Below the pieces are notes generated by a model. The model was not told the origin of the DNA and did no database searches. It worked only from the letters and a program-made list of their open reading frames with translations. A program made the translations under genes and the position numbers. Shown here in pieces: positions 16,456 to 61,194 of a DNA stretch of 64,000 nucleotides (its first letter is position 1; each line of letters opens with the position of its first letter). The DNA comes from Candidatus Shapirobacteria bacterium. Its GTDB lineage: Bacteria > Patescibacteriota > Microgenomatia > UBA12405. The DNA is taken from positions 12,505 through 76,504 of the forward strand of contig JBAZZE010000002.1 in assembly GCA_041658955.1 (NCBI GenBank), in the 5' to 3' direction.

Positions 16456-16464
16456 TGTTATAAT
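16456..16464 (+). promoter_or_regulatory. Candidate extended -10 element (TGtTATAAT) 6 nt upstream of the acyltransferase ATG, possibly a leaderless transcript
   Basis: TGTTATAAT at 16456..16464 in an 82-bp AT-rich divergent intergenic region. There is no SD sequence before the ATG at 16471. The background is AT-rich, so a chance match is plausible. Confidence 0.2.
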
Positions 16465-16470
16465 GTAAAA

Positions 16471-18803: not shown

Positions 18804-18810
18804 AGTTTTT

Positions 18811-28206: not shown

Positions 28207-28208
28207 AG

Positions 28209-31020: not shown

Positions 31021-31028
31021 TAGAATAT

Positions 31029-32747
31029 ATGTCTCAGAAAAGACTCAAAAAGATTCGAAAAATCCAACAAGAAGTAGAAAGTGTAAAGGTCGTGTCAATA
31101 CCTGAAGGTGAAAAGCTGAACATTATTAGAACTATAAAAGATAATTGGATATTTTTGGTGTTGATAACGGTGGCGATTATAGCGGTATTTGCCAATGGAA
31201 TGAATGCAGCTTTTGTGTCGGATGACTATGCGACGATTCTAAATAACCCTGATATAACAAAGTGGTCATATGCTTTTCAGGGTGGGGCGTCGACTTATTT
31301 TATAAATAGTATGGTCGCCAAGATGTTTGGGGTAGTGCCACTCCCCTTTCATTTGAATAGTTTGTTTTTGTACCTGATTACCTGTTATCTGGCTTTTGTG
31401 TTTGTACATCATTTATTTGGGCGAGGAGTGGCTTCAATTACTCTGTTTTTATTTGCAGTTCATCCAATCCATGTGGAAGCGGTGACCTGGATATCGGGTA
31501 AGCCATATCTACTGATTGCGATGTACGTATTGCTGTCGATGATTTGGTTTATAAAATTTATTGAAACTGAAAATATTTGGTATTTAGTCGGGACATTTCT
31601 ATCGTTTGTAATGGGGTTTTTGACCGACAATCCCCGTCCATTTTCTTTGTTCTTAATAATGCCTTTATACATGTGGCTCAAAGGAGTCGACATCCGAAAA
31701 AATAAATGGTGGAAGTATTGGCCACTGACACTGATTCCGATAGCCATAATCACGGTGATTGTGTGGCCACATATTATGATGCGGGTTGGGGTAGTTAATT
31801 CAGGTGTAAATACCTCAGATAGTTTGTTTTATAACCCATTTTTTCAATACCCCACCGGAATGGCCAAGTATTTACAATTGTTGTGGGCTCCAATTGATCT
31901 TACCTTGTACCACACGATGTATGTTTTCCCGGTATGGCTAAACTGGGCAATCCTACTGATGTACTTAACTTTGATTGGTTACTTTTCCTGGAAAGATAAG
32001 AGATATGCATTTGCTTTAATCTTTATTTTTGCGGCAATACTTCCTTCGATGATGCCAGTAAAGGTTAGCTGGTTGGTAGCAGAACGATATGCTTATCTTG
32101 GTTCACTAGGATTTTGTCTGTTTTTGGGATTAATTCTTCATGAAATGTCAACCAAAATTAAATGGGTGGCTGGCGGGCTAATGGTGGTGATACTAGTCTT
32201 ATCAAGTGTTAGATTAATGTTGCGAAATATTGACTGGACTACAAATCATAAGTTGTGGGTAAATACTTGCCAAGTTTCACCAAATTCTCATAATGCTTGG
32301 AACAATATCGGCGATGATTACGATAAACTGAAACAATACGATAATGCGGTAAAAGGTTTTTCTCAATCAACAGTAATCAAACCGAATTATGCCGATGCTT
32401 TTCATAATCGGGCCAATATCTTTTTTAAGATGGGTAGAAATGATCTGGCGCGACAAAGTTATAACACTGCTCTGTACTACAACCCAGGGTTATACCAGAC
32501 TTACCTAAGCCTGATTAATATTGATTTAATCGAAAGAGATTTGGATAGTGCCCTTAATCATGCTAAGACAGCCCTGCAAGTAAATCCAAACGATCCAACA
32601 ACTCACTACATTTTGGCAGTAGTCTTGTCGCAGAGAAATGAAAATCAACAAGCGATTGATGTACTCGAGAGATTGGTTAAAGCTTATCCCGGTTATCGAC
32701 AAGCACAAGAGGCTTTAGTTCAGCTAAAAGGAATGATTAAAAAATAA
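31029..32747 (+). CDS. TMTC-like protein: N-terminal GT-C membrane domain (DUF1736/PMT-related) fused to C-terminal TPR repeats
   Basis: 572 aa. FVSDDY and AVHPIHVEAVTWISG match the TMTC/DUF1736 hallmarks (F.DD and HP.H.E.V.WIS). There are about 10 TM helices. The C-terminus (aa ~440-570) has at least 4 TPR-like repeats (AWNNIGDDY..., ADAFHNRANIFFKMGRNDLA..., TTHYILAVVL...). Confidence 0.65.
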   Translation: MSQKRLKKIRKIQQEVESVKVVSIPEGEKLNIIRTIKDNWIFLVLITVAIIAVFANGMNAAFVSDDYATILNNPDITKWSYAFQGGASTYFINSMVAKMFGVVPLPFHLNSLFLYLITCYLAFVFVHHLFGRGVASITLFLFAVHPIHVEAVTWISGKPYLLIAMYVLLSMIWFIKFIETENIWYLVGTFLSFVMGFLTDNPRPFSLFLIMPLYMWLKGVDIRKNKWWKYWPLTLIPIAIITVIVWPHIMMRVGVVNSGVNTSDSLFYNPFFQYPTGMAKYLQLLWAPIDLTLYHTMYVFPVWLNWAILLMYLTLIGYFSWKDKRYAFALIFIFAAILPSMMPVKVSWLVAERYAYLGSLGFCLFLGLILHEMSTKIKWVAGGLMVVILVLSSVRLMLRNIDWTTNHKLWVNTCQVSPNSHNAWNNIGDDYDKLKQYDNAVKGFSQSTVIKPNYADAFHNRANIFFKMGRNDLARQSYNTALYYNPGLYQTYLSLINIDLIERDLDSALNHAKTALQVNPNDPTTHYILAVVLSQRNENQQAIDVLERLVKAYPGYRQAQEALVQLKGMIKK

Positions 32748-34141
32748 TGAAAAGAATATTAGTCCTAAACCCACCTTCAAGTGATAAGACAATCAACCGT
32801 GATATGGCCGGAGGCCTCGGGTATAGCGCTGGAGCGGGAGTAGTTCTGCCGCCTATTGACCTACTGAATGTGGTGACTACCCTGAAGAAGAAAAACAAAG
32901 TCTATTTTGTGGATGCTATCGCTGAGAAGATTGATGAACTGTCGTATTTTGTGGATCTGATAAAAAGCAAAAAAATTGACATCGTTATTTCGGGATTGGC
33001 GCTACCAACTGTATCTGAGGATACTGAATTTGCTAAAAAATTAATGGATAATGTACCTGGATTACGGGTAATATTTAAGACTGGGATTAATTATAAACAA
33101 ATCCTCGAACGGGTACTCAAAGATTCGGGAGCAGAACTAATAATTTTTGGAGAGTGTGACCTAACTATAGAAGAATTTTTAAGCGGTAAGAGAAGAACCG
33201 GATGTGTTTACTGGAAAAACAATAAGGTCGAGTTGGCACCAATGACAATTGAGGATCGGATAAAAAACTTAGACGAACTTCCCCTGTCGGCTCGTGAGGA
33301 AACAAAAATTGATCGATATCGCTATGTACTGCTTCCGGGTGTGGTGACAACCATGCAAACAAGTCGGGGTTGTCCATATCCATGTGGATTTTATTGTCCC
33401 TATCCCCTAGTTCAGGGTAAGACTTGGCGAGCCATGAGTAATGAACGTGTCATTAAAGAATTGAAGGTTATCAGTAAGCTAGGAATCAAAAGTGTACTGT
33501 TTCGAGATGCTACGTTTACGCTGGATAACAAAAGAACTGAAGAGCTATGTAACCTGATAATTAAAAATAAGTTAAAGATTCGCTGGTGGTGTGAGACTCG
33601 GATAAATGTACTAACTCCGGATTTGTTGAAGATTATGAAAAAGGCGGGGTGCCTCGGTATTAACGTGGGCATTGAAACATTGGACCAGGAACTGATTATT
33701 TATCAGGGAAAGCCAGGAGTAACACTAGAGTCGATACAAAAAATAAGAGCGGTAGCTAAGGAAGTGGGAGTTAGACTGCATTTTCTAATGATCATCGGAC
33801 TGCCAGACGATAATTTGAAAACAATGTCCAATACCTTTGACTATCTAGTTCGACTTAATCCTGAGTCAGTTGGGTTTAGTACGATAACTCCGTACCCTGG
33901 GACAGAAATGTTTGCTGATGCGATGAAAGAAGGACTAATCCAAGACTTTGATTGGAATAAGTTCAATGGAAATATTAGCAATATGAGAACGAAGTATTTG
34001 TCATCTTTTGACATGATAATTCTTCGCAAGATGCTACTAGGAACAGCTTTCATTATGAAGCAACCTCCAATAATTTCGGTTCCGGCAGTAATAGTGATAA
34101 AAATAATTCTCAAGATATGGAAAACAGCCAGAAGAGAATAA
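32747..34141 (+). CDS. Cobalamin-binding radical SAM protein (B12-binding domain plus radical SAM core), paralog 1, with a noncanonical CX3CX3C motif
   Basis: 464 aa. The N-terminal Rossmann-like B12-binding region (ILVLNPPS...VDAIAEKI...DIVISG) is followed by a TIM-barrel radical SAM core. The Cys cluster is SRGCPYPCGFYCPY at 33371..33397, verified in the nucleotide sequence. Confidence 0.75.
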   Translation: MKRILVLNPPSSDKTINRDMAGGLGYSAGAGVVLPPIDLLNVVTTLKKKNKVYFVDAIAEKIDELSYFVDLIKSKKIDIVISGLALPTVSEDTEFAKKLMDNVPGLRVIFKTGINYKQILERVLKDSGAELIIFGECDLTIEEFLSGKRRTGCVYWKNNKVELAPMTIEDRIKNLDELPLSAREETKIDRYRYVLLPGVVTTMQTSRGCPYPCGFYCPYPLVQGKTWRAMSNERVIKELKVISKLGIKSVLFRDATFTLDNKRTEELCNLIIKNKLKIRWWCETRINVLTPDLLKIMKKAGCLGINVGIETLDQELIIYQGKPGVTLESIQKIRAVAKEVGVRLHFLMIIGLPDDNLKTMSNTFDYLVRLNPESVGFSTITPYPGTEMFADAMKEGLIQDFDWNKFNGNISNMRTKYLSSFDMIILRKMLLGTAFIMKQPPIISVPAVIVIKIILKIWKTARRE

Positions 34142-34998
34142 GGTTTAGTATCATAATTCCGACTCTAAAAAGGCAAGAGATCTTAAAAGAGGCATTGGCA
34201 CTACTAAATAAGGAAATCGATAAAACCCGTGACGAAATCATAATTGTGGAAGGAAAAAATGGCCCATCAAAAGCCAGAAACGAGGCCATAAAAAAAGCTA
34301 AGGGGAAGTACCTACTGTTTTTAAATGATGATAGTTTTGTGGAGAAGGGGTTTATAAAATCACATATTGATTTTCATAATTTGCATAAGTCTGAATCGGC
34401 TGGAGTAGTGGGGCTGACCGAAAATCATCCGGAAACTGTAAAGATTCGGGCAATGAAATGGTTGGTGGGTCAAAGTGGGCTACACTTTAATTATCGATTT
34501 AAATATACTGATAAAATCCGTCAAATCCCCTGGTATTATTTGTGGACCTGTAATTTTTCGATGAAGAGAAGTTTTCTTATTAAAAATGAATTGTGGTTTT
34601 GTGAAGATTTTCCAACTGCGGCTTGGGAAGATATTGAGTTTGCTTTTCGGGCTAAACAAAGTGGATTAAAATTGTATTTTGATAGTCAAGCCAAGGTCTG
34701 GCATTTTCATCAACTAAAGTTTATTGATATAAAAAATCGATTCATAAGTCATGGTCGTGGTTTGTATTATTTGAAGTCAAAACTTCCAGTAAACTTTTTA
34801 CCATTTTTAGTAAAAAACAATATCGGAGGAATAATTATGTCAGTAATGGAATGGCGGATTATGAATCGAATTAGAAACATATTGGAATGGATTGTAAAAA
34901 CCACCGATAATTATCCAAATGTAATCATGCAATGGTTAGTAGTTAAATGGAAATCAGATGGCTATACCTTTGAATCTAAAAAAATGTCCGGTCTGTGA
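34117..34998 (+). CDS. GT2 family glycosyltransferase
   Basis: 293 aa. FSIIIPTLKRQEIL...GPSKARNEAI...LFLNDDSF. Confidence 0.75.
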   Translation: MENSQKRIRFSIIIPTLKRQEILKEALALLNKEIDKTRDEIIIVEGKNGPSKARNEAIKKAKGKYLLFLNDDSFVEKGFIKSHIDFHNLHKSESAGVVGLTENHPETVKIRAMKWLVGQSGLHFNYRFKYTDKIRQIPWYYLWTCNFSMKRSFLIKNELWFCEDFPTAAWEDIEFAFRAKQSGLKLYFDSQAKVWHFHQLKFIDIKNRFISHGRGLYYLKSKLPVNFLPFLVKNNIGGIIMSVMEWRIMNRIRNILEWIVKTTDNYPNVIMQWLVVKWKSDGYTFESKKMSGL

Positions 34999-35812
34999 GT
35001 CAGCAAATAATCTGGAATGGAGTGTAAATACTAATTATCTAGAGTGTTCGAAGTGCAAGTGTGTCTGGTTGGAAAAGAAGTCCAAAAGTACCTATGATAA
35101 GGATTATTATGATCGGGGAAGTAAGGGCTGGTTGATGAAAGTAGTCGACATCTTTTCTTTTTGGGACAGGTACCATACTTTGAATTTGTCCAAAAGTGAC
35201 AGAATTTTGGAGATAGGCTTTGGTGAGGGTAAATTCTTAAAAGAGCTAATGTCTAAGAAATATAATGTTGCCGGGGTAGAACAATCAGAATATGCCAGAG
35301 ATAAAATGAAAAAGATTCTTGGCTCTGAAAATGTTTTTGATGATATTGAAAAGGTTTCGGGAAAATTCGCGGTGGTAGTGATGTACCATGTGTTGGAACA
35401 TATTCAGGAACCAAAAGAATATCTTAAAAAGATAATGAGGATATTAATTCCGGGAGGGAGATTGATTGTGAGAGTCCCAAACGTAGATTCATTGGAGGCC
35501 AGACTGGCTGGGCCTAATTGGTATCACTTAGATTATCCGAATCATCAGATATTGTTTAGTGAAGCCGGACTTATCAAAATGTTTGAGGATGTGGGTTTTA
35601 AAGATATCAAGAGTCGTAACTATTTTGGAGAATACCGGCAAGTTTTGGGTTACTCGATACTGTCCAAGCTGGGACTTAGACTCAACAAATGGCAGTTGAT
35701 TATTTTTCAAATAATGACTATCCCAATACTTTGGATCTTTTCGGTCCTAGTGGTTCAACATGGAGTAATTGAGGTTGAGGGAAAAGTTGGTAATTCCAGT
35801 AATAATACATAA
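34958..35812 (+). CDS. Class I SAM methyltransferase (type 11/12) with an N-terminal CxxC...CxxC zinc-ribbon and a C-terminal TM helix
   Basis: 284 aa. CPVCES...CSKCKC is a Zn ribbon, ILEIGFGEGKFL is motif I, and the hydrophobic tail is LIIFQIMTIPILWIFSVLVV. Confidence 0.65.
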   Translation: MAIPLNLKKCPVCESANNLEWSVNTNYLECSKCKCVWLEKKSKSTYDKDYYDRGSKGWLMKVVDIFSFWDRYHTLNLSKSDRILEIGFGEGKFLKELMSKKYNVAGVEQSEYARDKMKKILGSENVFDDIEKVSGKFAVVVMYHVLEHIQEPKEYLKKIMRILIPGGRLIVRVPNVDSLEARLAGPNWYHLDYPNHQILFSEAGLIKMFEDVGFKDIKSRNYFGEYRQVLGYSILSKLGLRLNKWQLIIFQIMTIPILWIFSVLVVQHGVIEVEGKVGNSSNNT

Positions 35813-37286
35813 GCCAGTAGGTGTGACGAGCGATTTCGATAAGAGGTCCACCAATAAATTCACTAAAGATACGCGAATAGTTACCTGAACTGATGTGACT
35901 GTTGATGCGATTAAGACAATTTTTGAGATAATATTTTTTGGTGATAAGGGAAGGATTAAAACGGGTGGAATGCCACTTAGATTGGTAACGGATAATATAT
36001 TTGATGTCGATAGTGTCATTAATTTTGGCTTTACCGGTTTGGGCGCGGATTAATTCACTCCAGTTGTTGTGAGCTGAGGTGCGCTGAAATTCATCGCTAC
36101 GCATGAAAGCGTCACCAAGGTAGGTTCCGGGGAGTGGAGAAAGCACTGAGGCCCAGACGATGTCTGGTTTGGAGCGAGCGATGAGGTTGTCGGTCATCAT
36201 AACGTCTTCAATGGTTTCGGTGGGCATGCCAATCATTAAATTGGCATTAGCTAAAATTCCGTACTGGTGACAAAGGTTGATAGCATATTCGTTTTGTTTG
36301 GCATCGGTCCCCTTGTTGATGACTTTGAGCATCCGGTCGGAACCAGATTCGATACCGAAACAAATCATTTTGCAACCACATTTTTTGACCATCTCCATTA
36401 CTTCGGGATTGATGTAATTGACACGGGAGTAACACCACCAATCGAAGTGGAGTTTTTCCTTGACAATAAGGCTACTAAATTCTTCCATCCATTTGCGATT
36501 GGCAGTCAGAGTATCGTCCCAGAAAATAATACTTTTAACGTGATATTTGTTGATAAGTTGTTTGATTTCCTTAATGACATTGGGAGCGGAGCGGAAACGG
36601 AAAGGTCGTCCAAAAAGTTTGTCGATGGTAGGTTGACACATGGTACACATAGCCGGACAGCCACGACTAACGAAGAGGTTGGCGTATGGGTAAGACATGG
36701 GAAAAAATAGATCATAGGCATGTTCAATGTAATGACCACTTTGGAGAATTTCCCGATCTGGAAATGGTAGAACATCAAGGTTTTTAATGAATTCCTGGGG
36801 AGGATTCATGATGATCTCTCCTTTCTTGTTTTTATAAGCAATTCCTTTGACTTTTGATAATGGTATTTTTTTATCAAAAGCATTGATTAGCTCAACGGCA
36901 GTTTTTTCGCCTTCGCCGTAGACTGCGGCTTCAATGTCGGGAATGGCGGCGGCTTCACGAGGTAAAACTGAAGGGTGGGGTCCGCCGATGATTAAGTGAG
37001 CTTTGGGGAGAATTTTTTTGACATCTTGAACTAGATTTTCGATCAGGTCAGCTTCGGTGGTAAGTTGAGAAAAGCCAATGTATTTGGGATTTAGTTTACG
37101 TAAAATTTTGGCGAGAGCTGACAGATCAGGGAGAAGTCGAAGATCTATCTGTTTGGTAGGAATGTGGTGGGAATTGAGGTAGGCAGAAATATTGGCGATG
37201 CCAAGTGGAGAAACATAATGGTGGTAGCGATCTTTGTGAGGAGGTGTATATTGACCAACAAAGATGAGGACCACTTTTGTTTTCAT
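35718..37286 (-). CDS. Cobalamin-binding radical SAM protein, paralog 2
   Basis: 522 aa. An N-terminal B12-binding-like domain is followed by a canonical SRGCPAMCTMC (CX3CX2C) motif and a radical SAM core. Its 3' end overlaps the convergent methyltransferase gene by 95 nt. Confidence 0.75.
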   Translation of the reverse strand: MKTKVVLIFVGQYTPPHKDRYHHYVSPLGIANISAYLNSHHIPTKQIDLRLLPDLSALAKILRKLNPKYIGFSQLTTEADLIENLVQDVKKILPKAHLIIGGPHPSVLPREAAAIPDIEAAVYGEGEKTAVELINAFDKKIPLSKVKGIAYKNKKGEIIMNPPQEFIKNLDVLPFPDREILQSGHYIEHAYDLFFPMSYPYANLFVSRGCPAMCTMCQPTIDKLFGRPFRFRSAPNVIKEIKQLINKYHVKSIIFWDDTLTANRKWMEEFSSLIVKEKLHFDWWCYSRVNYINPEVMEMVKKCGCKMICFGIESGSDRMLKVINKGTDAKQNEYAINLCHQYGILANANLMIGMPTETIEDVMMTDNLIARSKPDIVWASVLSPLPGTYLGDAFMRSDEFQRTSAHNNWSELIRAQTGKAKINDTIDIKYIIRYQSKWHSTRFNPSLITKKYYLKNCLNRINSHISSGNYSRIFSEFIGGPLIEIARHTYWLMYYYWNYQLFPQPQLLHVEPLGPKRSKVLG

Positions 37287-37330
37287 TTTAACTATTATGA
37301 CAGCTGTAGGAGTTTGTGAAAAGATGGTAA

Positions 37331-37336
37331 TATAAT
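37331..37336 (+). promoter_or_regulatory. Candidate -10 hexamer (TATAAT) 3 nt upstream of the rSAM paralog 3 ATG (leaderless-type arrangement)
   Basis: TATAAT at 37331..37336 with the ATG at 37340, in a 53-bp divergent intergenic region between two rSAM genes. The 3-nt spacing is even closer than the 6-nt spacing at 16456..16464. This is weak evidence in AT-rich DNA. Confidence 0.15.
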
Positions 37337-37339
37337 TCT

Positions 37340-39963: not shown

Positions 39964-39979
39964 ACTCTGATATTATATA

Positions 39980-40606
39980 GTGATGAAAGAGGAAGTGAGA
40001 ATTAACTTAGGTTCGGGTCCGGATGGGATAAAAGGCTGGATTAATTACGACTGGGGATTGTTGCCACTTTTTGGGAAGTTTCCATTATTTAGAAAGGTAT
40101 TAGTAACTTTAGGGATATTGGATAAGAGTTACGAAAGAAAGTGGGAGGGAGTGATTCTACATGATTTACGCAAGGGAATACCGATGGCCGATAATAGTGT
40201 GGACTGGGTTTATAGTTCTAATTTTTTAGAGCATTTGGAAAAATATGAAACTGAAAAGTTATTATCTGAGTGCCTTCGGGTACTAAAAGTAAATGGAAAA
40301 ATTAGAATAGTCGTGCCTGATATTGGCAAGGTAATGGAGAAATATAAAAATACTGGGGATGCTGATGTATTTTGTCGGGAATTTTATGGATATGATAAAG
40401 ACAAAATGTTTGGAGTAAGTAAATCAGCTGTCAGAGGTCACCAATGGATGTACGACTATCAGAGTTTAAGTAATCTTTTAAATAAGGTTGGTTTTGTAAA
40501 GATAACTAAATCGACTTTTCGCAAGAGTACGATGAGAGATATTGAATTACTCGATCTTTCGATTCATCAAGAGCTGGGACTGTATATTGAAGCGGAAAAG
40601 AATTAG
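39980..40606 (+). CDS. Class I SAM methyltransferase (Methyltransf_11-like)
   Basis: 208 aa. VDWVYSSNFLEHLEKYETEKLLSECLRVLKVNGKIRIVVPD is the motif II/III region of type 11 methyltransferases. Confidence 0.6.
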   Translation: MMKEEVRINLGSGPDGIKGWINYDWGLLPLFGKFPLFRKVLVTLGILDKSYERKWEGVILHDLRKGIPMADNSVDWVYSSNFLEHLEKYETEKLLSECLRVLKVNGKIRIVVPDIGKVMEKYKNTGDADVFCREFYGYDKDKMFGVSKSAVRGHQWMYDYQSLSNLLNKVGFVKITKSTFRKSTMRDIELLDLSIHQELGLYIEAEKN

Positions 40607-41721
40607 TAGTGCTTAGCAATAAAAAGAATATTGTCAGAAGAATAATGTTTTTTGGCGTAAGATAGACAATTGCTTTTTAGTTTTTTCAAAATGGATGGAT
40701 TTTTATAAAGCTTTTTAATGGCGTTCTCTAGGTTTTCAGATGTAGGGGGTACGATTAGAGCGATAGTTTTGTCGACTGCTTCGGTGGTACCACCGAGGTT
40801 TGAACAGATAACTGGAGTACCACAAGCGACTGATTCGGCCAAGACTCTTCCCCAGCCTTCTTGATAGATAGAGGGTAGGCAGAAAATAGTCGATTGTTGA
40901 TAATATTGAGGTAATGACCGATATGGGACATCACCAATTAATTTGATGTTGGAGTGTTTCAGAGATAGTTGACGAAGGCTGTTATATTGAGGTCCGGTAC
41001 CAATAAAATTAAAAGTAATTTTAGGAAATTTTGGTGCTAATAATGCAAGAGTTAGAGCATTTTTAGGTGGTATTAATCTACCAATAAATAAAACTGAAAA
41101 ATTGGATGAAGTTTTTTTAGTTGGTTTAAAGCGATACAGATCAATCCAATGGTAATAACGAAAAATATTTTTTTTGAAAACACCAAGAGATGTTAGTTGT
41201 TTTACTGATTGGTTTGATTGGGTTAGGACACAATCAGTACTATTTAAAATATTTACCAAAAGATTAGTGGAAAAAGAGTTAAGTGGGACGTTATCGTAAG
41301 TCGAATAAATAGATGTGATGTGCCGTTTTATATTGAATACTTTTTTAAGTATGTTGCCAATCAGGGCAGAATTTAGTCCATGAGAATGGATAGTGTCGAT
41401 GTGGGGTCGATTGACTAATAGCCAGACGAAAGAACGTAATAACAAATATGGGGTAATATAAAGAAAGTTGACTAGAGGGTATTTTTCTAAAATATGAAAG
41501 AGGTTGTGACCTGGTAAATAAAAACGACGAATATATAGATGATCGGTAACTTCAATTTTGTTATAGCTGGTCTTGGTAGAAAGTGGAGAATAGGTAAGAA
41601 CAACTTGGTTATAATTACGTTTCTCGAGTTCGGAAGTTAGGTCTTCAAGATGGGTTTCGGCCCCACCAATGTTTGGTCTGAAGAAGGGAGTGATGTGAAG
41701 GATTGTTTTTATTGGTGCCAT
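40603..41721 (-). CDS. GT4 family glycosyltransferase
   Basis: 372 aa. QEGWGRVLAESVACGTPVICSNLGGTTEAV. Confidence 0.75.
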   Translation of the reverse strand: MAPIKTILHITPFFRPNIGGAETHLEDLTSELEKRNYNQVVLTYSPLSTKTSYNKIEVTDHLYIRRFYLPGHNLFHILEKYPLVNFLYITPYLLLRSFVWLLVNRPHIDTIHSHGLNSALIGNILKKVFNIKRHITSIYSTYDNVPLNSFSTNLLVNILNSTDCVLTQSNQSVKQLTSLGVFKKNIFRYYHWIDLYRFKPTKKTSSNFSVLFIGRLIPPKNALTLALLAPKFPKITFNFIGTGPQYNSLRQLSLKHSNIKLIGDVPYRSLPQYYQQSTIFCLPSIYQEGWGRVLAESVACGTPVICSNLGGTTEAVDKTIALIVPPTSENLENAIKKLYKNPSILKKLKSNCLSYAKKHYSSDNILFIAKHY

Positions 41722-42740
41722 TGTTTTCGGTCTAGTGGTTTTAATAGGCCTAGTTTAAATTTGATGGTTTGGGTGCCGTAATTATAAAGGGTTATTAGAC
41801 AAGCTAAGGGATGAAAAAACCATGCTGGATCAGGTTTTTTGATAAAACCTCGGAAGGTGTCATAAATCATCGGAAAAATAGTAACTACATAAAGACAGAA
41901 ACGGATGGTCGGCATTAAGTTGTTTTGAGTTAGAGGGTAAGTCCGGTCGTGTCTATAAGTATAGAGGTCGACAGCCCGACGTAATTGTTTACGATTGAAT
42001 TTGGAAATGGAAGATTCACAATAGGTGTGGATAATACCAACTTTGACTTTGGCGAATTTTAGAGTTTTCTTCTTAGTAAGAATGGTTGATAAAAAGTCGA
42101 TGTCAAAAAAGTAGTCTCCAGACAAATATTTCTTGGCGATAGACGAGCGATAGATGGTGCCGTTGGCGCCGATAGTTGGAAGTGGAGATGTACTGTTAAA
42201 ACGAATAAGTTGGTAATATTGGTGGTCAACAATATTTAGATTTAACCCGGTCCAAGTGTTACTGAGTAGACTTTGCCGATCATAATTTTTGGCAATCAGA
42301 GTGTAAGGATCATTGACTCCAGTTAAGGCGCTATAGCGTTCGATAAACCCACCTTTGGGTCTGTAAGTGTAACTCCATGGTTCAGCGCCAATTGTGTTTG
42401 GTGATGAGATAAGCGGGATAAGCATTTTAGATAACCAATCGGTATCTGGGAGGATGTTGTCTGAATCGACTAGGGCAACAAAATCAGTAGTAGCTTTTTT
42501 GATACCAAAGGCTTTGGCTGACTCTCCTGTTTTAAGTGGATTGTGAATCACTTGAGTACGATAAATATTGGTTATTTTAAGGGTTGAATCAGTCGAGCCC
42601 CCATCGACAATGAGAATGGTTATTTTATTTTGGGGATATTTTTGATCAACAATTGACTGCAGACAATCTATTAGAACAGACCCAGAATTTAAGGTGGGAA
42701 TAATAAAAGTTACTGATGGAAATTTAGAGGATACCGCCAT
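41709..42740 (-). CDS. GT2 family glycosyltransferase
   Basis: 343 aa. VTFIIPTLNSGSVLIDCL...LIVDGGSTDST...LVDSDN. Confidence 0.75.
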   Translation of the reverse strand: MAVSSKFPSVTFIIPTLNSGSVLIDCLQSIVDQKYPQNKITILIVDGGSTDSTLKITNIYRTQVIHNPLKTGESAKAFGIKKATTDFVALVDSDNILPDTDWLSKMLIPLISSPNTIGAEPWSYTYRPKGGFIERYSALTGVNDPYTLIAKNYDRQSLLSNTWTGLNLNIVDHQYYQLIRFNSTSPLPTIGANGTIYRSSIAKKYLSGDYFFDIDFLSTILTKKKTLKFAKVKVGIIHTYCESSISKFNRKQLRRAVDLYTYRHDRTYPLTQNNLMPTIRFCLYVVTIFPMIYDTFRGFIKKPDPAWFFHPLACLITLYNYGTQTIKFKLGLLKPLDRKQWHQ

Positions 42741-44259
42741 AACGATGGATGAGTGAAAAAATCCAATAATCTAGTGGATAGTCAAAGAACTTTAGTCGCC
42801 AACGAATGGTAACTAAAAGTAGAGCAATATAATAACCAGTGGTAAAGGCAACTTTTGCCAGTGGATTTTTTAGGCGAGGATACAACATGGTATAGGTATC
42901 TCGGTCCATAATTCCAAAAATATATTGAGTTAACATGGCAGTTAATCGAGCATCATGCGAACTAATCCACTGTTGGCGAATCGTCTCCTTGAAAGCGTTT
43001 TCGGGTGACATAAGATAATTGGTCCACTGCTCAAAACTAGTAGGTGCTTTTAGTCCTAGACTCACTGCACGGTTGTATAATGATGCCCCAGGGTATGGTA
43101 AAAATACGTAGTAAGTATAACGGTTACGATTGCTAATTTTTAATAATCTATCGATAAGACTTAGTGTAGACCGGTATTCGGTAGCTACAAATTCGTCATT
43201 TTCTTGGGGATTTTTGGACCATGGTAGGCCGACTAAAAATGAATAGAGAATTTTAATATTATGTTGGTGACAGAGCTGAGTGAATTTGACTATTTCGTCG
43301 ACATTCATGTCTTTACTGATAAAGTCGAGTGATTTTTGATCACCTGATTCGGCTCCGGTGAGGATCATAGTGCAACCAGCTTTTTCCATGAGATCCCAGG
43401 TTTCTGGTTTATAGCGACTAAGCTGCCCAGCTCGACCGTTGGCATTGCCAAATTTGATGGGAAGTTTTCTCTCGATTAATCCCTGACAGATTTTTTGGAC
43501 TCGGTTTTCATCAACAAAAAAATTGCTATCATAAACAGCAATTGAGTCGGCACCATAAGTTCTATATAAGTTTTCCCATTCGTCCAAGACTTTTTCAGCG
43601 GGAACGGCTTTCCAGCTGCGTTTGTTGACAATCTCTTCAACACAAAAGGCACAACGATGAGGACAGCCGTAACTACTAATATAAGGTGCCGTTCGAAGTC
43701 CATATTCAGTGGGGATGGTACAGTTGCTGACATCGATGAGGTGATAGGGAAGGGGTGGAACAGCTGCCAGGTCGACAGGTCCCCTGTCTGGTGTTTCAAT
43801 AATCTTCTTTCTTTTTTTATAGACCAAACCTTTGACACTCTGAAGATCAGTTTTGTTTTCCAGAGCGTGGACTAACTCGGTAAAGGTGATGTCACCTTGA
43901 CCTTTGACTACAATATCGACATGGGGATCTTTGACAGTTTCGTGAGGAAGAATTGAAGGGTGCCAACCACCCCAGACTATGGGAACTTTGGGATATTTTT
44001 TCTTAAATTTTTTGGCTAATTTTAAACCATCATATATTTGGTGGCCAGTCATGGCACTAATACCAAGACAAATAGCATCTTTACCAGAGGACAATAATTC
44101 TCGTTCGTAATTTTTTTGAAGGTAACGAGTGTATATTTTGATGTCGTAATTTTCTTGATCAAGATAGCGGGAGATGGCTAGTAGGGCTAAAGGCACTCCA
44201 TGCCAGTTTCTTTCATAAGGTAGTGGGGAGGGAAAGAAGAGAAGAATTTTTTTGGACAT
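42724..44259 (-). CDS. Cobalamin-binding radical SAM protein, paralog 4
   Basis: 511 aa. An N-terminal B12-binding-like domain is followed by a canonical SYGCPHRCAFC motif and a radical SAM core. Confidence 0.75.
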   Translation of the reverse strand: MSKKILLFFPSPLPYERNWHGVPLALLAISRYLDQENYDIKIYTRYLQKNYERELLSSGKDAICLGISAMTGHQIYDGLKLAKKFKKKYPKVPIVWGGWHPSILPHETVKDPHVDIVVKGQGDITFTELVHALENKTDLQSVKGLVYKKRKKIIETPDRGPVDLAAVPPLPYHLIDVSNCTIPTEYGLRTAPYISSYGCPHRCAFCVEEIVNKRSWKAVPAEKVLDEWENLYRTYGADSIAVYDSNFFVDENRVQKICQGLIERKLPIKFGNANGRAGQLSRYKPETWDLMEKAGCTMILTGAESGDQKSLDFISKDMNVDEIVKFTQLCHQHNIKILYSFLVGLPWSKNPQENDEFVATEYRSTLSLIDRLLKISNRNRYTYYVFLPYPGASLYNRAVSLGLKAPTSFEQWTNYLMSPENAFKETIRQQWISSHDARLTAMLTQYIFGIMDRDTYTMLYPRLKNPLAKVAFTTGYYIALLLVTIRWRLKFFDYPLDYWIFSLIHRYGGIL

Positions 44260-44983
44260 AAAGGCTATTGATTGGTGTCTTTTGAACCAACTTATAGCCT
44301 AATTTTAACAGATATTGATGGAGTGAGAGACTGGACTGCGTTTCGACACAAATTACCTTGGGATGATACTTATTCCAATTGTTACTTTTGAGAACTGTTA
44401 GGTCATGACCTTCGGTATCTATACTAAGTAGGTCAAAATTATCGCTATTTGATAAATGTTTATCAAGGACAGCCGATAAAGACGAAACTTTTATATTGGG
44501 GGTACTAACTAAAATAGAATTATTTTTTAAGTTATGTTGATATTGTTTTTCCGAAAAGGTGGAATTAACATCAGGAAACATTTGATAAAATTTTAGAAGT
44601 CCGGAACTGTCAGATATGCCAATGTTAAGGTTGATATCACGATCTCTTTTTTGTTTATAAAGCGAGAGGAGTTGGGGGTTTGGTTCGATATTTATACCCT
44701 GACTCCCGTGTAGATAGAAAAAGTAGGTGTTGTTAAATTTTTGAGGATGATTGGCACCGATATCAACGTAGAATATTTTTTTAGAATTTAAAAGTTTTTT
44801 GATAATCAGATCCTCATTGTATTGAGAGTAGGATTTTTGGAGAAATTCATAAAATATTTTGCGATAAAGGAACTGGAGTGTAAGTTTGATTGTCCAATAA
44901 AATCCGTAGATACGGAATTTAGTTAGTAGCTGCCTTACTAACGAGAGGGAAGTCTCGGAGTTTTTTGAGGTATTTAATGGCAT
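44213..44983 (-). CDS. FkbM family methyltransferase
   Basis: 256 aa. QYNEDLIIKKL...FYVDIGANHPQKFNNTYFF matches the FkbM consensus (GED..l...vvDvGAn.G). Confidence 0.65.
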   Translation of the reverse strand: MPLNTSKNSETSLSLVRQLLTKFRIYGFYWTIKLTLQFLYRKIFYEFLQKSYSQYNEDLIIKKLLNSKKIFYVDIGANHPQKFNNTYFFYLHGSQGINIEPNPQLLSLYKQKRDRDINLNIGISDSSGLLKFYQMFPDVNSTFSEKQYQHNLKNNSILVSTPNIKVSSLSAVLDKHLSNSDNFDLLSIDTEGHDLTVLKSNNWNKYHPKVICVETQSSLSLHQYLLKLGYKLVQKTPINSLYVQKNSSLLSLPTTL

Positions 44984-46484
44984 AGGTAAATAGATGCTTG
45001 ATATCGTCTAAAGAGCGGATAGACAAGACTTTACGAATTAGAAAACGAGGAGTGAGAATGCCATGGAAGAGACTCTGGACGAGTTCTAACTGTTCATTGT
45101 CGGATAGAGGTGACTTCATTATGGGATGGCGCATGTCGTATTCATTCCAGTCCTCAGTTTTTAACCAATTGTTGTCTTGGCATTGCTTGAATAATGGGGT
45201 ACCAGGATAAGGGACTACAATAGTTGCTTGCATACTGTCGGCTAGACCATCACGGAAAAGACTACGAGCCTCTTCAAGGGTATTAAGGGCATCTTGGCGA
45301 GTTTCCCAAGGGTAGCCGATCATAATGGTCAAATGTGGTTCTAAACCGGCTTTTTTGGCCATGATCAGTGTTTTGCGTGAGTCTTCTACTTTGGTGTTTT
45401 TGACAATCATGTCGAGGGTTTTTTGGTTACTTGATTCAAGTCCATAAAGAATAAACCTAAAACCAGCTTTGCCCATGAGGTCATATTGTTCTTGGTTGAG
45501 GGCCCCAAAGCGCATATTACAGCCCATGACAACTTTTTTGTGAAGTCCCCTCTTGATCATCTCGTTACAAAAGTCGCGCAGCCAAGGCCCGATAGGTAAC
45601 GTCCCGGCATCGTCAAAAATTTCTCGAATACCAAGTGAGGCCATATATTCGATTTCATCAACCGTGTGTTTGACTGAAAAATTACGAAAATTATTGCCTG
45701 GGAAAATACTAATCCAAGAACAAAAAGTACATTTACCCCACCAACAATCTCGTCCAGTCATCAAATAAGCGCCGGGGTGGTATTTGAAATTGGTATTGTC
45801 ATTGCCGTAGAGTTTCCAATTGGTGAGCTCTCGGTTGATGGGAGGAAGAGTGTCTAGATTGTGATGTTTTAGGGCAAATTTGCCAGTATTAACTATTACC
45901 CGTTTGGATTTGGCAGAGGTTTTAAGATTGCCACGTCGCTTCGCTCCTCGCAATGACGTGGGTTCTTCCTTTGACCAAAAAAAGAATCCTGGCTCGAGTT
46001 TTGTACCATTTACTAAATGTTCGACTAAATTCATCGTCATAAAATCGTAGTCGCCACCGGTAATGACATAATCTACTGGCGAATTTTTGAGTGATTCTTC
46101 GGGCATTGCGGTGACATGGTCACCGAATAGAACAACTTTTAGATTCCACTTATTGTCCTTAGAAGCGGCTGATTTTAAGTCTTTGATAATAGCCCAGTGT
46201 CGTTTGATGGTGGGAGTCTTGGATTCGATGGCCACAAGTGATGGCCGCCATTTTTTAATTCGAGCCAACCACTTTTGATAAGATATTTTTTCAGCAATAG
46301 CGTCATCCCAATAGACTTTGTATCCCAGATTGTGAAGTGCAGAGGCACCATAAGCCGGAATAACTGGCAAAATTACATTGCCGGTGTTGGTCCACTGAAA
46401 TTGGCGGTTTTGAGCTAGAAAGGGAATACCTTTGTCGGTTTCCAATGGTGGGTAAGAAATGGCAATTGAAAAGCTCTTTTTCAT
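44919..46484 (-). CDS. Cobalamin-binding radical SAM protein, paralog 5, with a CX4CX2C motif and an internal basic insert homologous to the intergenic element at 29.05 kb
   Basis: 521 aa. The Cys cluster GRDCWWGKCTFC is at 45720..45746. Residues ~173-193 (EEPTSLRGAKRRGNLKTSAKS) are encoded by repeat copy B. Confidence 0.7.
   Translation of the reverse strand: MKKSFSIAISYPPLETDKGIPFLAQNRQFQWTNTGNVILPVIPAYGASALHNLGYKVYWDDAIAEKISYQKWLARIKKWRPSLVAIESKTPTIKRHWAIIKDLKSAASKDNKWNLKVVLFGDHVTAMPEESLKNSPVDYVITGGDYDFMTMNLVEHLVNGTKLEPGFFFWSKEEPTSLRGAKRRGNLKTSAKSKRVIVNTGKFALKHHNLDTLPPINRELTNWKLYGNDNTNFKYHPGAYLMTGRDCWWGKCTFCSWISIFPGNNFRNFSVKHTVDEIEYMASLGIREIFDDAGTLPIGPWLRDFCNEMIKRGLHKKVVMGCNMRFGALNQEQYDLMGKAGFRFILYGLESSNQKTLDMIVKNTKVEDSRKTLIMAKKAGLEPHLTIMIGYPWETRQDALNTLEEARSLFRDGLADSMQATIVVPYPGTPLFKQCQDNNWLKTEDWNEYDMRHPIMKSPLSDNEQLELVQSLFHGILTPRFLIRKVLSIRSLDDIKHLFTYAIKYLKKLRDFPLVSKAATN
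45912..45961. repeat. Repeat copy B (inside the rSAM paralog 5 CDS): GGCAGAGGTTTTAAGATTGCCACGTCGCTTCGCTCCTCGCAATGACGTGG
   Basis: It is homologous to 29051..29123 in the same + strand orientation. It contains the inverted pairs CCACGTC/GACGTGG and ATTGC/GCAAT. Confidence 0.7.
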
Positions 46485-61193: not shown

Positions 61194-61194
61194 G

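What the first reader, a model, noticed from the sequence alone, without database searches (positions are those of the whole stretch)
32747..46484. Five cobalamin-binding radical SAM paralogs embedded in a glycan locus: candidate radical glycan-tailoring system
Five genes, each with an N-terminal B12-binding-like domain and a Cys-cluster radical SAM core, sit within 14 kb. They are interleaved with GT2 and GT4 glycosyltransferases, three class I SAM methyltransferases and one FkbM methyltransferase, a CofD-like protein and a TMTC-like GT-C protein. By established knowledge, the B12-rSAM class is dominated by methyltransferases acting on unactivated carbon or phosphorus, for example GenK, Fom3 and TsrM. 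Several of these act on sugars, but none is described as a core component of a polysaccharide or glycoprotein assembly line. Five diverged paralogs point to several distinct radical modifications (C-methylations, or ring contraction, epimerisation or C-C coupling) on sugar residues of one surface polymer. If the host is a reduced-genome symbiont, the cobalamin requirement is itself notable. I rank this first among candidates for an undescribed system in the window.
Basis: partly seen in the sequence, partly recalled or inferred. Interest (0 to 1): 0.85.

Follow-up and report, generated by a model that had tools for sequence, protein, structure and literature searches.

The report
Radical SAM sugar-tailoring modules in CPR glycan locus
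Five very different radical SAM enzymes really do sit among the glycosyltransferases of a cell-surface sugar-polymer locus in an uncultivated Shapirobacteria (CPR) bacterium. They form separable enzyme-plus-glycosyltransferase modules that recur in hundreds of genomes, and one of them belongs to the cobalamin-free sugar dehydratase family (AprD4) rather than being a B12 methylase.

Summary
Five radical SAM (rSAM) ORFs lie at 32747-46484, interleaved with GT2 and GT4 glycosyltransferases and methyltransferases. The whole 64 kb window is a glycan locus of a Candidatus Shapirobacteria bacterium.

- R1 is an AprD4-type enzyme: E=1e-54 over its full length to PDB 6fd2, with the same unusual CX3CX3C cluster motif. 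AprD4 is a cobalamin-free sugar 1,2-diol dehydratase.
- The Pfam B12-binding domain passes its threshold in R2, R3 and R4 only.
- R5 carries an invariant CX4CX2C motif. Its predicted fold is class B but does not show whether it binds cobalamin.
- No paralog reaches the cut-off of any curated family. The nearest families are the non-methylases HpnJ and BchE.

The five are not one system.
- Module A (SDR + R1 + GT2a + R3) recurs in polysaccharide loci of other phyla.
- Module B (PpgS-like GT2d + membrane GT2c + R5, with or without R4, + GT2b, next to five GT-C genes) is a conserved core across Patescibacteria. The R5 family was found in 289 species genomes, and GT2c sits directly upstream in 67 of 72 loci.
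- R2 is a narrow accessory.

There is no room for RiPP precursor genes. I found no description in the searchable literature. Verdict: a new variant of a known kind, radical sugar tailoring moved into envelope glycan assembly. The chemistry is inferred, not shown.

The parts
27466..29009 (-). ABC-2 type exporter: ATPase 27466-28206 and permease 28209-29009 (Wzt/Wzm-like)
   Evidence: Pfam ABC_tran and ABC2_membrane. Syntenic with CofD and GT-C/TPR in related Microgenomates loci.
29150..30049 (+). SDR oxidoreductase, the candidate reductase partner of R1 (analogous to AprD3)
   Evidence: Pfam Epimerase/NmrA. Best NCBIfam hit is HpnA at 124 bits, below the 368 cut-off. An SDR gene accompanies R1-family genes in every context inspected.
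30037..31020 (+). CofD/YvcK-like protein
   Evidence: Pfam CofD 140.8 bits. NCBIfam CofD_related 152 bits, below the 196 cut-off. Orthologues at 47-61% identity sit next to GT-C/TPR in related loci.
31029..32747 (+). GT-C (PMT_2-like, 8 predicted TM) with C-terminal TPR repeats (TMTC-like architecture). Its TAA stop overlaps the R1 ATG.
   Evidence: Pfam TPR families, plus PMT_2 at 22.7 bits, below the 26.1 gathering score. TM prediction. TAATG overlap at 32745-32749.
32747..34141 (+). R1: AprD4-family radical SAM enzyme, a predicted cobalamin-independent sugar 1,2-diol dehydratase
   Evidence: NCBIfam NF033070 AprD4, 253 bits over the full length, below the 500 cut-off. PDB 6fd2 E=1.2e-54, residues 4-423 against 9-421, with shared GCPYPCxFYCPYPL. 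CX3CX3C in 120 of 120 homologues.
34117..34998 (+). GT2a: soluble GT2, a conserved neighbour of R1 and R3
   Evidence: Pfam Glycos_transf_2 and Glyco_tranf_2_5. Relatives at 30-59% identity lie beside R1-like genes in L002, L004, L007, L008, L094, L095 and in metagenome loci.
34958..35812 (+). Class I SAM methyltransferase with a C-terminal TM helix
   Evidence: Pfam Methyltransf_23 84.8 bits. TM at 245-268.
35718..37286 (-). R2: class B (B12-binding domain) radical SAM enzyme, a narrowly distributed accessory paralog
   Evidence: Pfam B12-binding 61.2 and Radical_SAM 79.4. CX3CX2C. Best PDB hit is the MCR glutamine C-methyltransferase 9ccb at 70 bits. The closest 50%-cluster representative is only 41% identical. 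Orthologues at 78% in L002/L014 and 47% in L043/L100.
37340..38788 (+). R3: B12-domain radical SAM enzyme, the partner of R1 and GT2a in the cross-phylum cassette
   Evidence: Pfam B12-binding 36.2 and Radical_SAM 60.4. Best NCBIfam hit is HpnJ at 146 bits, below the 578 cut-off. Orthologues at 52-54% in L094 and L095, adjacent to R1-like, SDR and GT2 genes. R1-GT2a-R3 linkage holds in 9 of 11 metagenome loci with enough upstream DNA.
38767..41721 (.). GT4a (38767-39963, -), class I methyltransferase (39980-40606, +), GT4b (40603-41721, -)
   Evidence: Pfam. The order and strand pattern are conserved in Microgenomates loci.
41709..42740 (-). GT2b: GT2 that follows R5 or R4 in most related loci
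   Evidence: Pfam Glycos_transf_2 70.3 bits. It is the first downstream gene after R5 in 41 loci, or follows R4.
42724..44259 (-). R4: class B (B12-binding domain) radical SAM enzyme
   Evidence: Pfam B12-binding 48.7 and Radical_SAM 47.9. CX3CX2C. Best PDB hit is TokK 7kdx at 58 bits. The R5-R4-GT2b arrangement is conserved in L013 at 50/53/46% identity.
44213..44983 (-). FkbM-family methyltransferase
   Evidence: Pfam Methyltransf_21 74.8 bits. NCBIfam fkbM_fam 51.1 bits, above the 37.7 cut-off.
44919..46484 (-). R5: Patescibacteria-wide core radical SAM enzyme with an invariant CWWG[KR]CTFC (CX4CX2C) motif
   Evidence: Pfam Radical_SAM 51.3 and B12-binding 25.7, below the gathering score. 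The motif is present in 120 of 120 homologues. 100% identical protein in a Candidatus Shapirobacteria MAG. Relatives in 289 species genomes. AF2 model pLDDT 82; Foldseek top hits are AprD4, TsrM, MgmA and OxsB.
46516..47487 (-). GT2c: membrane GT2 (2-3 C-terminal TM helices), the near-invariant upstream partner of R5
   Evidence: Pfam Glycos_transf_2 and Glyco_trans_2_3. TM at 227-300. Immediately upstream of R5 in 67 of 72 loci.
47480..50356 (-). GT2d (47480-48292, polyprenyl-phosphate-sugar-synthase-like), GT4c (48289-49443), GT2e (49424-50356)
   Evidence: Pfam. Best NCBIfam hits for GT2d are PpgS, AglJ and ArnC types, all sub-threshold. A PpgS-like GT2 is the second gene upstream of R5 in 59 of 68 loci.
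50331..58231 (-). Five tandem GT-C (PMT/PMT_2-like) polytopic membrane glycosyltransferase paralogs heading the R5 operon
   Evidence: Pfam PMT/PMT_2 for four of the five. 7-8 predicted TM each. Four to five such genes precede GT2e-GT4c-GT2d-GT2c-R5 in Microgenomates loci.

Best explanation
The window is part of the cell-envelope glycan super-locus of a Candidatus Shapirobacteria (Microgenomates, CPR) bacterium. The five radical SAM genes are cytoplasmic sugar-tailoring enzymes. Each is genetically paired with a glycosyltransferase, and they belong to separable modules rather than to one five-enzyme system.

Module A consists of SDR 29150-30049, R1, GT2a and R3. R1 is an AprD4-type, cobalamin-independent radical 1,2-diol dehydratase. 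I propose that it abstracts a sugar C-H and eliminates the neighbouring hydroxyl to give a keto-deoxy sugar. The SDR then reduces this product, as AprD3 does for AprD4, so the net reaction is a deoxygenation. R3 performs a second radical step on the same residue or glycan (C-methylation or rearrangement), and GT2a installs or extends that residue.

Module B consists of GT2d, GT2c, R5, FkbM, R4 and GT2b, behind five GT-C genes. It is the conserved Patescibacteria core. A polyprenyl-phosphate-linked sugar or short glycan is made by the PpgS-like GT2d and the membrane GT2c. It is radically modified by R5, and where present by R4 and the FkbM methyltransferase. It is then extended by GT2b and used outside the membrane by the GT-C enzymes. 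The Wzm/Wzt-like ABC-2 exporter exports the polymer.

R2 is a lineage-restricted extra tailoring enzyme.

Shown: the domain and family assignments, the motifs, the orthology and the conserved gene linkage. Inferred: the substrates, the chemistry of R2-R5, any cobalamin use, and the order of steps.
For: - The locus is almost entirely glycan genes.
- R1 is AprD4-type: NF033070 253 bits over the full length; PDB 6fd2 E=1e-54 with a shared CX3CX3C box that is conserved in 120 of 120 homologues.
- AprD4 is a cobalamin-free diol dehydratase that acts on glycosides together with the reductase AprD3 (PMC5461906, PMC12931638).
- R1-like, SDR and GT2a-like genes plus a B12-domain rSAM recur in Wzx/Wzy-type or other glycan loci of an Omnitrophica MAG, a 'Proteobacteria' MAG and two other lineages. 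In L094 and L095 the B12-domain rSAM is an R3 orthologue at 52-54% identity.
- R1-GT2a-R3 linkage holds in 9 of 11 informative metagenome loci.
- The R5 family was found in 289 species genomes. GT2c is directly upstream in 67 of 72 loci, and a PpgS-like GT2 is second upstream in 59 of 68.
- R5-R4-GT2b is conserved in L013.
- R1, R3, R4 and R5 have 1:1 orthologues at 52-69% identity in a Woesebacteria locus with the same gene order.
- The genes are tightly packed or overlapping. The intergenic gaps are 54, 17 and 32 nt, and the GT-C/TPR stop overlaps the R1 start in a TAATG.
- One methyltransferase and GT2c are membrane-anchored.
Against: - No biochemical or glycan-structure data exist for any member.
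- R1 scores only half the NCBIfam AprD4 equivalog cut-off, so its substrate, and perhaps its reaction, may differ.
- The SDRs next to R1-like genes are only 25-34% identical between CPR and non-CPR loci. They may not be orthologous, and homology to AprD3 was not tested.
- GT2c itself is not clearly a polyprenyl-phosphate sugar synthase; its best hit is MftF at 71 bits.
- An R4 homologue at 56% identity in a Verrucomicrobia MAG lies outside any glycan-assembly context.
- R3-like genes at 45-50% identity occur as tandem pairs in contexts I could not annotate.
- Related loci were annotated only by BLAST against the window's own proteins.
Confidence: 0.55

Rival explanations
1. One reading: all five are cobalamin-dependent radical SAM enzymes, mainly C-methyltransferases, that jointly decorate the sugars of one surface polymer as a single system.
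For: R2, R3 and R4 pass the Pfam B12-binding threshold. R4's best solved relative is the methylase TokK, and R2's is the MCR glutamine C-methyltransferase 9ccb. All five genes are contiguous and syntenic in L002/L014 and L004.
Against: R1 is AprD4-type, meaning no cobalamin and a dehydratase function (PMC12931638). R5 fails PF02310 and has a variant cluster motif. The best curated-family scores are to the non-methylases HpnJ and BchE (PMC9204698). The modules occur separately: 50 of 80 R5 loci have no second rSAM within 10 kb, and L094 and L095 have Module A without R5.
Confidence: 0.15
2. The rSAM enzymes do not act on sugars. They act on another component handled by the locus, such as the polyprenyl or lipid anchor or the acceptor protein of the GT-C/TPR enzyme. 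Class B rSAMs that modify hopanoids, tetraether lipids or proteins are the precedent.
For: The nearest curated families include lipid-pathway enzymes (HpnJ, HpnR, the ladderane rSAM) and a protein methylase (MCR Gln methyltransferase). R1 and R4 have weakly hydrophobic C-termini. The R4 homologue in L012 sits next to ceramidase and aminotransferase genes.
Against: HpnJ itself acts on the glucosamine ring of its substrate (PMC9204698), and AprD4 acts on a sugar. Each rSAM gene is specifically paired with a glycosyltransferase gene across phyla. No lipid-synthesis genes were found in the window.
Confidence: 0.12
3. The cluster makes a secreted small glycoside natural product (aminoglycoside- or moenomycin-like) rather than an envelope polymer.
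For: AprD4 and the characterised sugar-acting class B rSAMs (GenK, GenD1, Fms7, MoeK5) all come from antibiotic pathways (PMC9204698, PMC5461906).
Against: The locus contains at least eight GT-C enzymes, a Wzy_C-like protein, an ABC-2 exporter, GDP-mannose dehydratase and about 25 glycosyltransferases. Module B is conserved as a core operon in hundreds of reduced CPR genomes. No 2-deoxystreptamine or aminocyclitol genes were seen.
Confidence: 0.08
4. The rSAMs are RiPP or peptide maturases that merely neighbour glycan genes.
For: Sub-threshold NCBIfam hits to ApyD and to RiPP C-methyltransferase families.
Against: There is no space for precursor genes; the gaps are 54, 17 and 32 nt. No peptidase, leader-binding or transporter genes typical of RiPP clusters were found. 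The conserved neighbours are always glycosyltransferases.
Confidence: 0.02

Closest known systems
AprD4/AprD3 (apramycin C3'-deoxygenation; PDB 6fd2)
   Same: R1 aligns over its full length with AprD4 (E=1e-54). It shares the GCPYPCxFYCPYPL CX3CX3C cluster box and is always accompanied by an SDR-type oxidoreductase gene. AprD4 also acts on an already glycosylated sugar.
   Different: R1 scores 253 bits against the 500-bit equivalog cut-off. It sits in polysaccharide and envelope-glycan loci of CPR and other uncultivated phyla, not in an aminoglycoside cluster. It is translationally coupled to a GT-C/TPR gene and linked to GT2a and R3. The partner SDR is HpnA-like and was not shown to be an AprD3 orthologue.
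HpnI/HpnJ/HpnK hopanoid side-chain pathway (a GT2 adds GlcNAc, then a class B rSAM contracts the sugar ring)
   Same: The logic is a GT2 followed by a class B rSAM acting on a lipid-linked sugar. HpnJ is the top or second NCBIfam hit for R1-R5, and the SDR's top hit is HpnA.
   Different: All scores are 20-30% of the cut-offs. GT2c shows no HpnI hit. There are no hopanoid genes. So this is not the Hpn pathway.
Sugar-acting cobalamin-dependent rSAM methylases of antibiotic pathways (GenK, GenD1/GntE, Fms7, MoeK5)
   Same: Class B architecture (Rossmann domain plus rSAM barrel) and a sugar-biosynthetic context.
   Different: Those enzymes belong to secondary-metabolite clusters. Relatedness to them could not be tested, because no models or sequences were available in the tools. 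Methyl transfer is unproven here.
Lipid-linked donor tailoring before GT-C transfer (ArnC/ArnD/ArnT; DprE1/E2 with Emb/Aft; PpgS with Rv3779)
   Same: A PpgS/ArnC-like GT2 (GT2d) and multiple GT-C enzymes lie in one operon with a tailoring enzyme between them in the pathway logic.
   Different: Here the tailoring enzyme would be a radical SAM protein (R5, with or without R4), which has no described precedent. This is an inference from gene order only.

Membership tests
AprD4 family radical SAM diol dehydratase (for R1) | Full-length sequence homology to AprD4, including the N-terminal Rossmann-like domain | tested here: met
   PDB 6fd2 E=1.2e-54, query 4-423 against chain 9-421. NF033070 aligned 3-423 against 7-420 of 456.
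AprD4 family radical SAM diol dehydratase (for R1) | Non-canonical CX3CX3C [4Fe-4S] motif in place of CX3CX2C | tested here: met
   C209/C213/C217 form CPYPCGFYC, aligned to AprD4 CPYPCRFYC. 120 of 120 homologues have CX3CX3C and none has CX3CX2C.
AprD4 family radical SAM diol dehydratase (for R1) | NCBIfam equivalog score at or above the curated cut-off (500 bits) | tested here: not met
   253.2 bits. R1 is a family relative, not an equivalog, so the same substrate should not be assumed.
AprD4 family radical SAM diol dehydratase (for R1) | Works with a dedicated NAD(P)H reductase partner (AprD3) | tested here: inconclusive
   An SDR gene is co-located in every context. Homology to AprD3 was not tested, and the SDRs are only 25-34% identical between CPR and non-CPR loci.
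AprD4 family radical SAM diol dehydratase (for R1) | No cobalamin bound; 1,2-diol dehydratase activity | not testable with these tools
   Needs protein biochemistry. The property of AprD4 is taken from PMC12931638 and PMC5461906.
Class B (cobalamin-dependent) radical SAM enzymes (for R2-R5) | N-terminal B12-binding (PF02310) domain at or above the gathering score of 32.1 | tested here: inconclusive
   R2 61.2, R4 48.7 and R3 36.2 meet it. R5 at 25.7 does not.
Class B (cobalamin-dependent) radical SAM enzymes (for R2-R5) | Rossmann domain plus partial TIM-barrel fold like TsrM, OxsB or TokK | tested here: met
   Tested for R5 only. AF2 pLDDT 82, pTM 0.85. Foldseek hits: AprD4 4e-18, TsrM 4e-17, MgmA 1e-16, OxsB 4e-16, TokK 9e-12. 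Because the best hit is the cobalamin-free AprD4, the fold does not prove cobalamin use.
Class B (cobalamin-dependent) radical SAM enzymes (for R2-R5) | Canonical CX3CX2C radical SAM motif | tested here: inconclusive
   R2 (C210/214/217), R3 (C207/211/214) and R4 (C199/203/206) meet it. R5 has CX4CX2C, which is invariant in 120 homologues.
Class B (cobalamin-dependent) radical SAM enzymes (for R2-R5) | Actual cobalamin binding and dependence | not testable with these tools
   No sequence motif is diagnostic. No cobalamin uptake or synthesis gene was found among the window's ORFs.
Characterised class B equivalog families (HpnJ, BchE, PhpK, HpnR, MCR Gln-MT, TsrM, BzaD, KedN5, RiPP C-MTs) | Score at or above the curated NCBIfam cut-off | tested here: not met
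   Best scores: R2 BchE 162 against 481; R3 HpnJ 146 against 578; R4 BchE 123 against 481; R5 HpnJ 126 against 578.
RiPP maturase cluster | Adjacent precursor peptide gene and peptide-processing genes | tested here: not met
   Intergenic gaps within 32.7-46.5 kb are 54, 17 and 32 nt. All neighbours are glycosyltransferases or methyltransferases.

The most novel reading that the evidence does not exclude
A radical SAM enzyme (the R5 family, with its invariant CX4CX2C motif) paired with a membrane GT2 is a previously unrecognised core step of cell-envelope glycopolymer synthesis across Patescibacteria. It would create an unusual (C-branched, deoxy or carbocyclic) sugar on a polyprenyl-linked donor that is then used by arrays of GT-C transferases. 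A second portable cassette (AprD4-like dehydratase + SDR + GT2 + R3) would be a radical, non-PMP route to deoxysugars in the surface polysaccharides of many anaerobic phyla. If R2-R5 truly need cobalamin, envelope biogenesis in these reduced-genome symbionts would depend on scavenged B12.
Probability: 0.3. Interest if true: 0.8.

Novelty: new variant of a known kind. Interest (0 to 1): 0.6.

Why it matters
Radical SAM tailoring of sugars is known almost only from antibiotic pathways (AprD4, GenK, DesII, BlsE) and from hopanoid head groups (HpnJ). Here the same enzyme classes are built into primary envelope-glycan operons. One of them is conserved in hundreds of CPR genomes, and another cassette is shared across phyla.

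This gives concrete and testable candidates for three things:
- unknown sugar chemistries in the envelopes of uncultivated bacteria;
- a possible cobalamin or anaerobiosis dependency of CPR surface biogenesis.

It also warns that Pfam B12-binding hits over-call cobalamin dependence in this superfamily.

Tried and rejected
- Literature: ten full-text searches found no description of these loci. They covered AprD4; CPR, Patescibacteria or Microgenomates with radical SAM; B12 rSAM with polysaccharide; deoxysugar with diol dehydratase; HpnJ; CPR with cobalamin; and 3WJ7. The broad search and the 3WJ7 search returned only irrelevant papers. The original AprD4 paper (PMC4943880) is not held.
- RiPP reading: rejected, because there is no intergenic space and there are no peptide-processing genes.
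- Phosphonate or P-methylation reading (sub-threshold PhpK and Sden_1168 hits): rejected for the window, because no PEP mutase was found among its ORFs. L094 does carry PEP mutase.
- Hopanoid HpnI/J/K analogy as family membership: rejected, because all scores are far below the cut-offs and GT2c shows no HpnI hit.
- GT2c as a GtrB/ArnC-type synthase: not supported by NCBIfam or PDB hits. GT2d fits that role better.
- Promoter and terminator scan: the counts are only modestly above the shuffled controls (promoter-like 71 against 55.4 ± 7.8; terminator-like 21 against 14.1 ± 3.6), and I drew nothing from the scan.
It was re-run without that row.
- Representative search for R2: it showed only that R2 has no close (>41% identity) cluster representative, within a superfamily of 8,586 proteins at E<=1e-30. 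It gives no functional information.
- Fold search: it cannot separate cobalamin-binding from cobalamin-free members, since the best hit of R5 is AprD4.

Full report
OBSERVATION. ORF listing and Pfam scans of essentially every ORF of at least 120 aa show that the whole 64 kb window is a glycan-biosynthesis super-locus. It holds about 25 GT2 and GT4 genes and at least eight GT-C (PMT/PMT_2-like) membrane proteins. It also holds a Wzy_C-like protein, an ABC-2 exporter pair (27466-29009), GDP-mannose 4,6-dehydratase with epimerase/reductases, acetyltransferases and methyltransferases.

Exactly at the stated coordinates lie five radical SAM ORFs:
- R1, 32747-34141 +
- R2, 35718-37286 -
- R3, 37340-38788 +
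- R4, 42724-44259 -
- R5, 44919-46484 -

Pfam Radical_SAM E-values run from 2e-12 to 5e-22. The paralogs are only 23-29% identical to one another.

The B12-binding domain (PF02310, gathering score 32.1) scores 61.2 in R2, 48.7 in R4, 36.2 in R3 and 25.7 in R5. It is absent in R1.

Inside the interval there are two class I methyltransferases, not three, plus one FkbM. The CofD-like gene and the GT-C+TPR ('TMTC-like') gene lie immediately upstream, at 30037-32747.

SOURCE. R5 is 100% identical to a protein of a Candidatus Shapirobacteria MAG (P0121). The nearest R1, R4 and R5 homologues come from Shapirobacteria, Woesebacteria and 'Microgenomates group' MAGs. An identical 6-kb contig comes from JGI sample 3300014208. 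The host is therefore a CPR/Patescibacteria bacterium.

R1 IS AprD4-TYPE. R1's best NCBIfam hit is NF033070, 'AprD4 family radical SAM diol-dehydratase', at 253 bits. The alignment covers residues 3-423 against model positions 7-420 of 456, but the score is below the 500-bit equivalog cut-off. Against the PDB, R1 matches AprD4 (6fd2) at E=1.2e-54 over the full length. The alignment shows the shared box S-x-GCPYPCxFYCPYPL, which is a CX3CX3C cluster motif. All 120 best database homologues carry CX3CX3C and none carries CX3CX2C.

AprD4 is a radical 1,2-diol dehydratase. Together with the NADPH reductase AprD3 it deoxygenates C3' of paromamine (PMC5461906). It does not bind cobalamin, although it has a Rossmann-like domain (PMC12931638). 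Many R1-family proteins nonetheless carry a precomputed PF02310 hit. A Pfam B12 hit in this superfamily is therefore not evidence of cobalamin use.

R2-R5. R2, R3 and R4 have the canonical CX3CX2C motif. R5 has CWWG[KR]CTFC (CX4CX2C), which is invariant in 120 of 120 homologues. No paralog approaches the cut-off of any curated family. The best hits are HpnJ and BchE at 101-162 bits against cut-offs of 481-578. Both are non-methylases, and HpnJ is proposed to contract a glucosamine ring (PMC9204698).

The best solved relatives by sequence are:
- R2: the MCR glutamine C-methyltransferase 9ccb, 70 bits
- R4: TokK, 58 bits
- R3 and R5: only the rSAM core of AprD4, 42-45 bits

An AF2 model of R5 (43-sequence alignment, pLDDT 82, pTM 0.85) gives Foldseek hits to AprD4 (4e-18), TsrM, MgmA, OxsB, TokK and CysS at TM 0.6-0.7. 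This confirms the Rossmann plus partial-barrel fold. It cannot decide cobalamin binding.

R2 has no 50%-cluster representative closer than 41% identity. It is the most narrowly distributed paralog.

CONSERVED CONTEXT: MICROGENOMATES. A Microgenomates MAG (L002/L014) and a Woesebacteria contig (L004/L103) show the same gene order as the window. They carry 1:1 orthologues of R1, R3, R4 and R5 at 52-87% identity, and an R2 orthologue at 78% in L002/L014. L004 carries a different fifth rSAM. The five lineages therefore diverged long ago and are individually maintained.

MODULE B (R5 CORE). A scan of one genome per species found R5 relatives in 289 genomes. These include Shapirobacteria, Woesebacteria, other Microgenomates, Parcubacteria (Moranbacteria, Falkowbacteria, Gribaldobacteria) and a few non-CPR labels, such as Candidatus Acididesulfobacter. 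I annotated the 80 fetched loci by BLAST against the window's proteins:
- The GT2c orthologue (46516-47487) is the gene immediately upstream of R5 in 67 of 72 loci.
- The next gene upstream is a PpgS/ArnC/AglJ-like GT2 (the GT2d or GT2_w14 type) in 59 of 68 loci.
- GT2b or R4 follows downstream in 49 loci.

In Microgenomates the operon is GT-C x4-5, GT2e, GT4c, GT2d, GT2c, R5, [FkbM, R4], GT2b. This is exactly the window's minus strand from 58231 to 41709. Fifty of the 80 loci have R5 as the only rSAM within 10 kb. Nineteen have two rSAMs, eight have three and three have four. The 10-kb flank limit undercounts, since R1 lies 10.8 kb from R5 in the window. L013 keeps R5, R4 and GT2b at 50/53/46% identity, together with GT-C_AftD and PMT_2 genes. 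GT2c has 2-3 C-terminal TM helices.

MODULE A (R1/R3 CASSETTE). R1-family genes at about 42% identity lie in Wzx/Wzy/Wzz-type polysaccharide loci of an Omnitrophica MAG (L006/L007) and a 'Proteobacteria' MAG (L008/L009). They also lie in two further glycan loci, L094 and L095. Each time they are flanked by an extended SDR, a GT2a-like GT2 (30-36% identity to GT2a) and a B12-domain rSAM. In L094 and L095 that rSAM is an R3 orthologue at 52-54% identity and about 500 bits.

A metagenome scan with an R3 alignment returned 40 loci. Of the 11 loci with R3 at 54% identity or more and enough upstream DNA, nine show R1-(SDR)-GT2a-(MT)-R3. In the window the GT-C/TPR stop overlaps the R1 start (TAATG). 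R1 overlaps GT2a, and GT2a overlaps a membrane-anchored methyltransferase.

MECHANISM PROPOSED. The assignments, motifs, orthology and linkage described above are shown. The rest is inferred.

R1 plus the SDR would carry out AprD4/AprD3-like radical dehydration and then keto-reduction of a sugar residue, giving a deoxysugar. R3 would add a second radical modification, and GT2a would install or extend that residue.

In Module B, the PpgS-like GT2d and the membrane GT2c would build a polyprenyl-phosphate-linked sugar or short glycan. R5 would modify it radically, with R4 and FkbM where present. The five GT-C enzymes would then use it on the outer face, by analogy with the ArnC/ArnD/ArnT, DprE/Emb and PpgS/Rv3779 systems (established knowledge). 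The ABC-2 pair would export the polymer.

Whether R2-R5 methylate, epimerise or rearrange their substrates, and whether they use cobalamin, is open.

RIVALS. The RiPP reading is excluded by the lack of space (gaps of 54, 17 and 32 nt) and by the neighbours. A phosphonate reading lacks PEP mutase in the window. A small-molecule glycoside product is unlikely, given the GT-C arrays, the exporter and the conservation of the core operon across CPR. Action on lipid or protein rather than sugar cannot be excluded. An R4 homologue in Verrucomicrobia sits in a non-glycan context, but the systematic rSAM-glycosyltransferase pairing makes this less likely.

NOVELTY. Ten full-text searches found no paper describing rSAM enzymes as components of CPR or polysaccharide assembly loci. 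Two recent class B reviews do not mention polysaccharides. The library is limited to open-access text, so this absence is not proof.

The enzymes are new, uncharacterised subfamilies of known superfamilies, placed in a new pathway context. I rate this a new variant of a known kind, with interest 0.6.

LIMITS. Related loci were annotated only by similarity to the window's proteins. Some MAG labels ('uncultured Gammaproteobacteria', 'Methanoperedens') are probably placeholders or binning errors. Cobalamin supply could not be examined beyond the window.

Noticed in passing
window 1-64000: GC skew is positive in every 2-kb bin although the genes lie on both strands. The cumulative skew rises monotonically, so the window seems to lie within one replichore with a strand compositional bias independent of transcription direction.
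   Followed up: no
window 16000-24000: A low-GC island (0.28-0.31 against about 0.38). It holds an Acyl_transf_3 gene, a methyltransferase-GT2 fusion (17442-18803), a GT-C gene (18811-20754) and a 993-aa GT2+GT2+GT4 triple-domain protein (20751-23732). It is probably a variable or horizontally acquired part of the glycan locus.
   Followed up: no
window 58264-62415 (+): Three consecutive ORFs (426, 550 and 406 aa) have no Pfam hit but 6-7 predicted TM helices each, directly beside the GT-C array. They may be unrecognised polytopic glycan polymerases or transferases. GTC4 (55056-56639) also has no Pfam hit, although it appears to be a paralog of its GT-C neighbours.
   Followed up: partly
window 32745-32749: A TAATG stop/start overlap between the GT-C/TPR gene and R1 suggests translational coupling. 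The GT-C/TPR protein has the eukaryotic TMTC-like architecture, which hints at protein O-glycosylation.
   Followed up: partly
L094:1758-6836: The non-CPR locus that carries the R1/SDR/GT2/R3 cassette also encodes PEP mutase fused to a cytidylyltransferase, a TPP decarboxylase, an Fe-ADH and a CDP-alcohol phosphatidyltransferase. These are genes for a phosphonate head group in the same glycan locus.
   Followed up: no
L012:1-11763: A Verrucomicrobia homologue of R4 (56% identity) lies beside an aminotransferase, another rSAM, a GH116 glucosylceramidase-like gene and an alkaline ceramidase. This may be a glycosphingolipid context rather than glycan assembly.
   Followed up: no
L118, L120-L123, L125, L127, L131: R3-like genes at 45-50% identity occur as tandem pairs (a triple in L118) in metagenome contigs, with no recognisable window-type glycosyltransferases nearby. 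This looks like a separate, unexplored context for the family.
   Followed up: no
P0362, P0371, P0378, P0379, P0460: Giant proteins of 2,000-2,300 aa contain three or four tandem class B radical SAM modules related to R2.
   Followed up: no
L105:1-2521: A close relative (R3 91%, GT-C/TPR 90%) has GT-C/TPR, a methyltransferase and R3 in order, without R1 and GT2a. This suggests presence/absence polymorphism of the R1-GT2a pair among near-identical strains.
   Followed up: no
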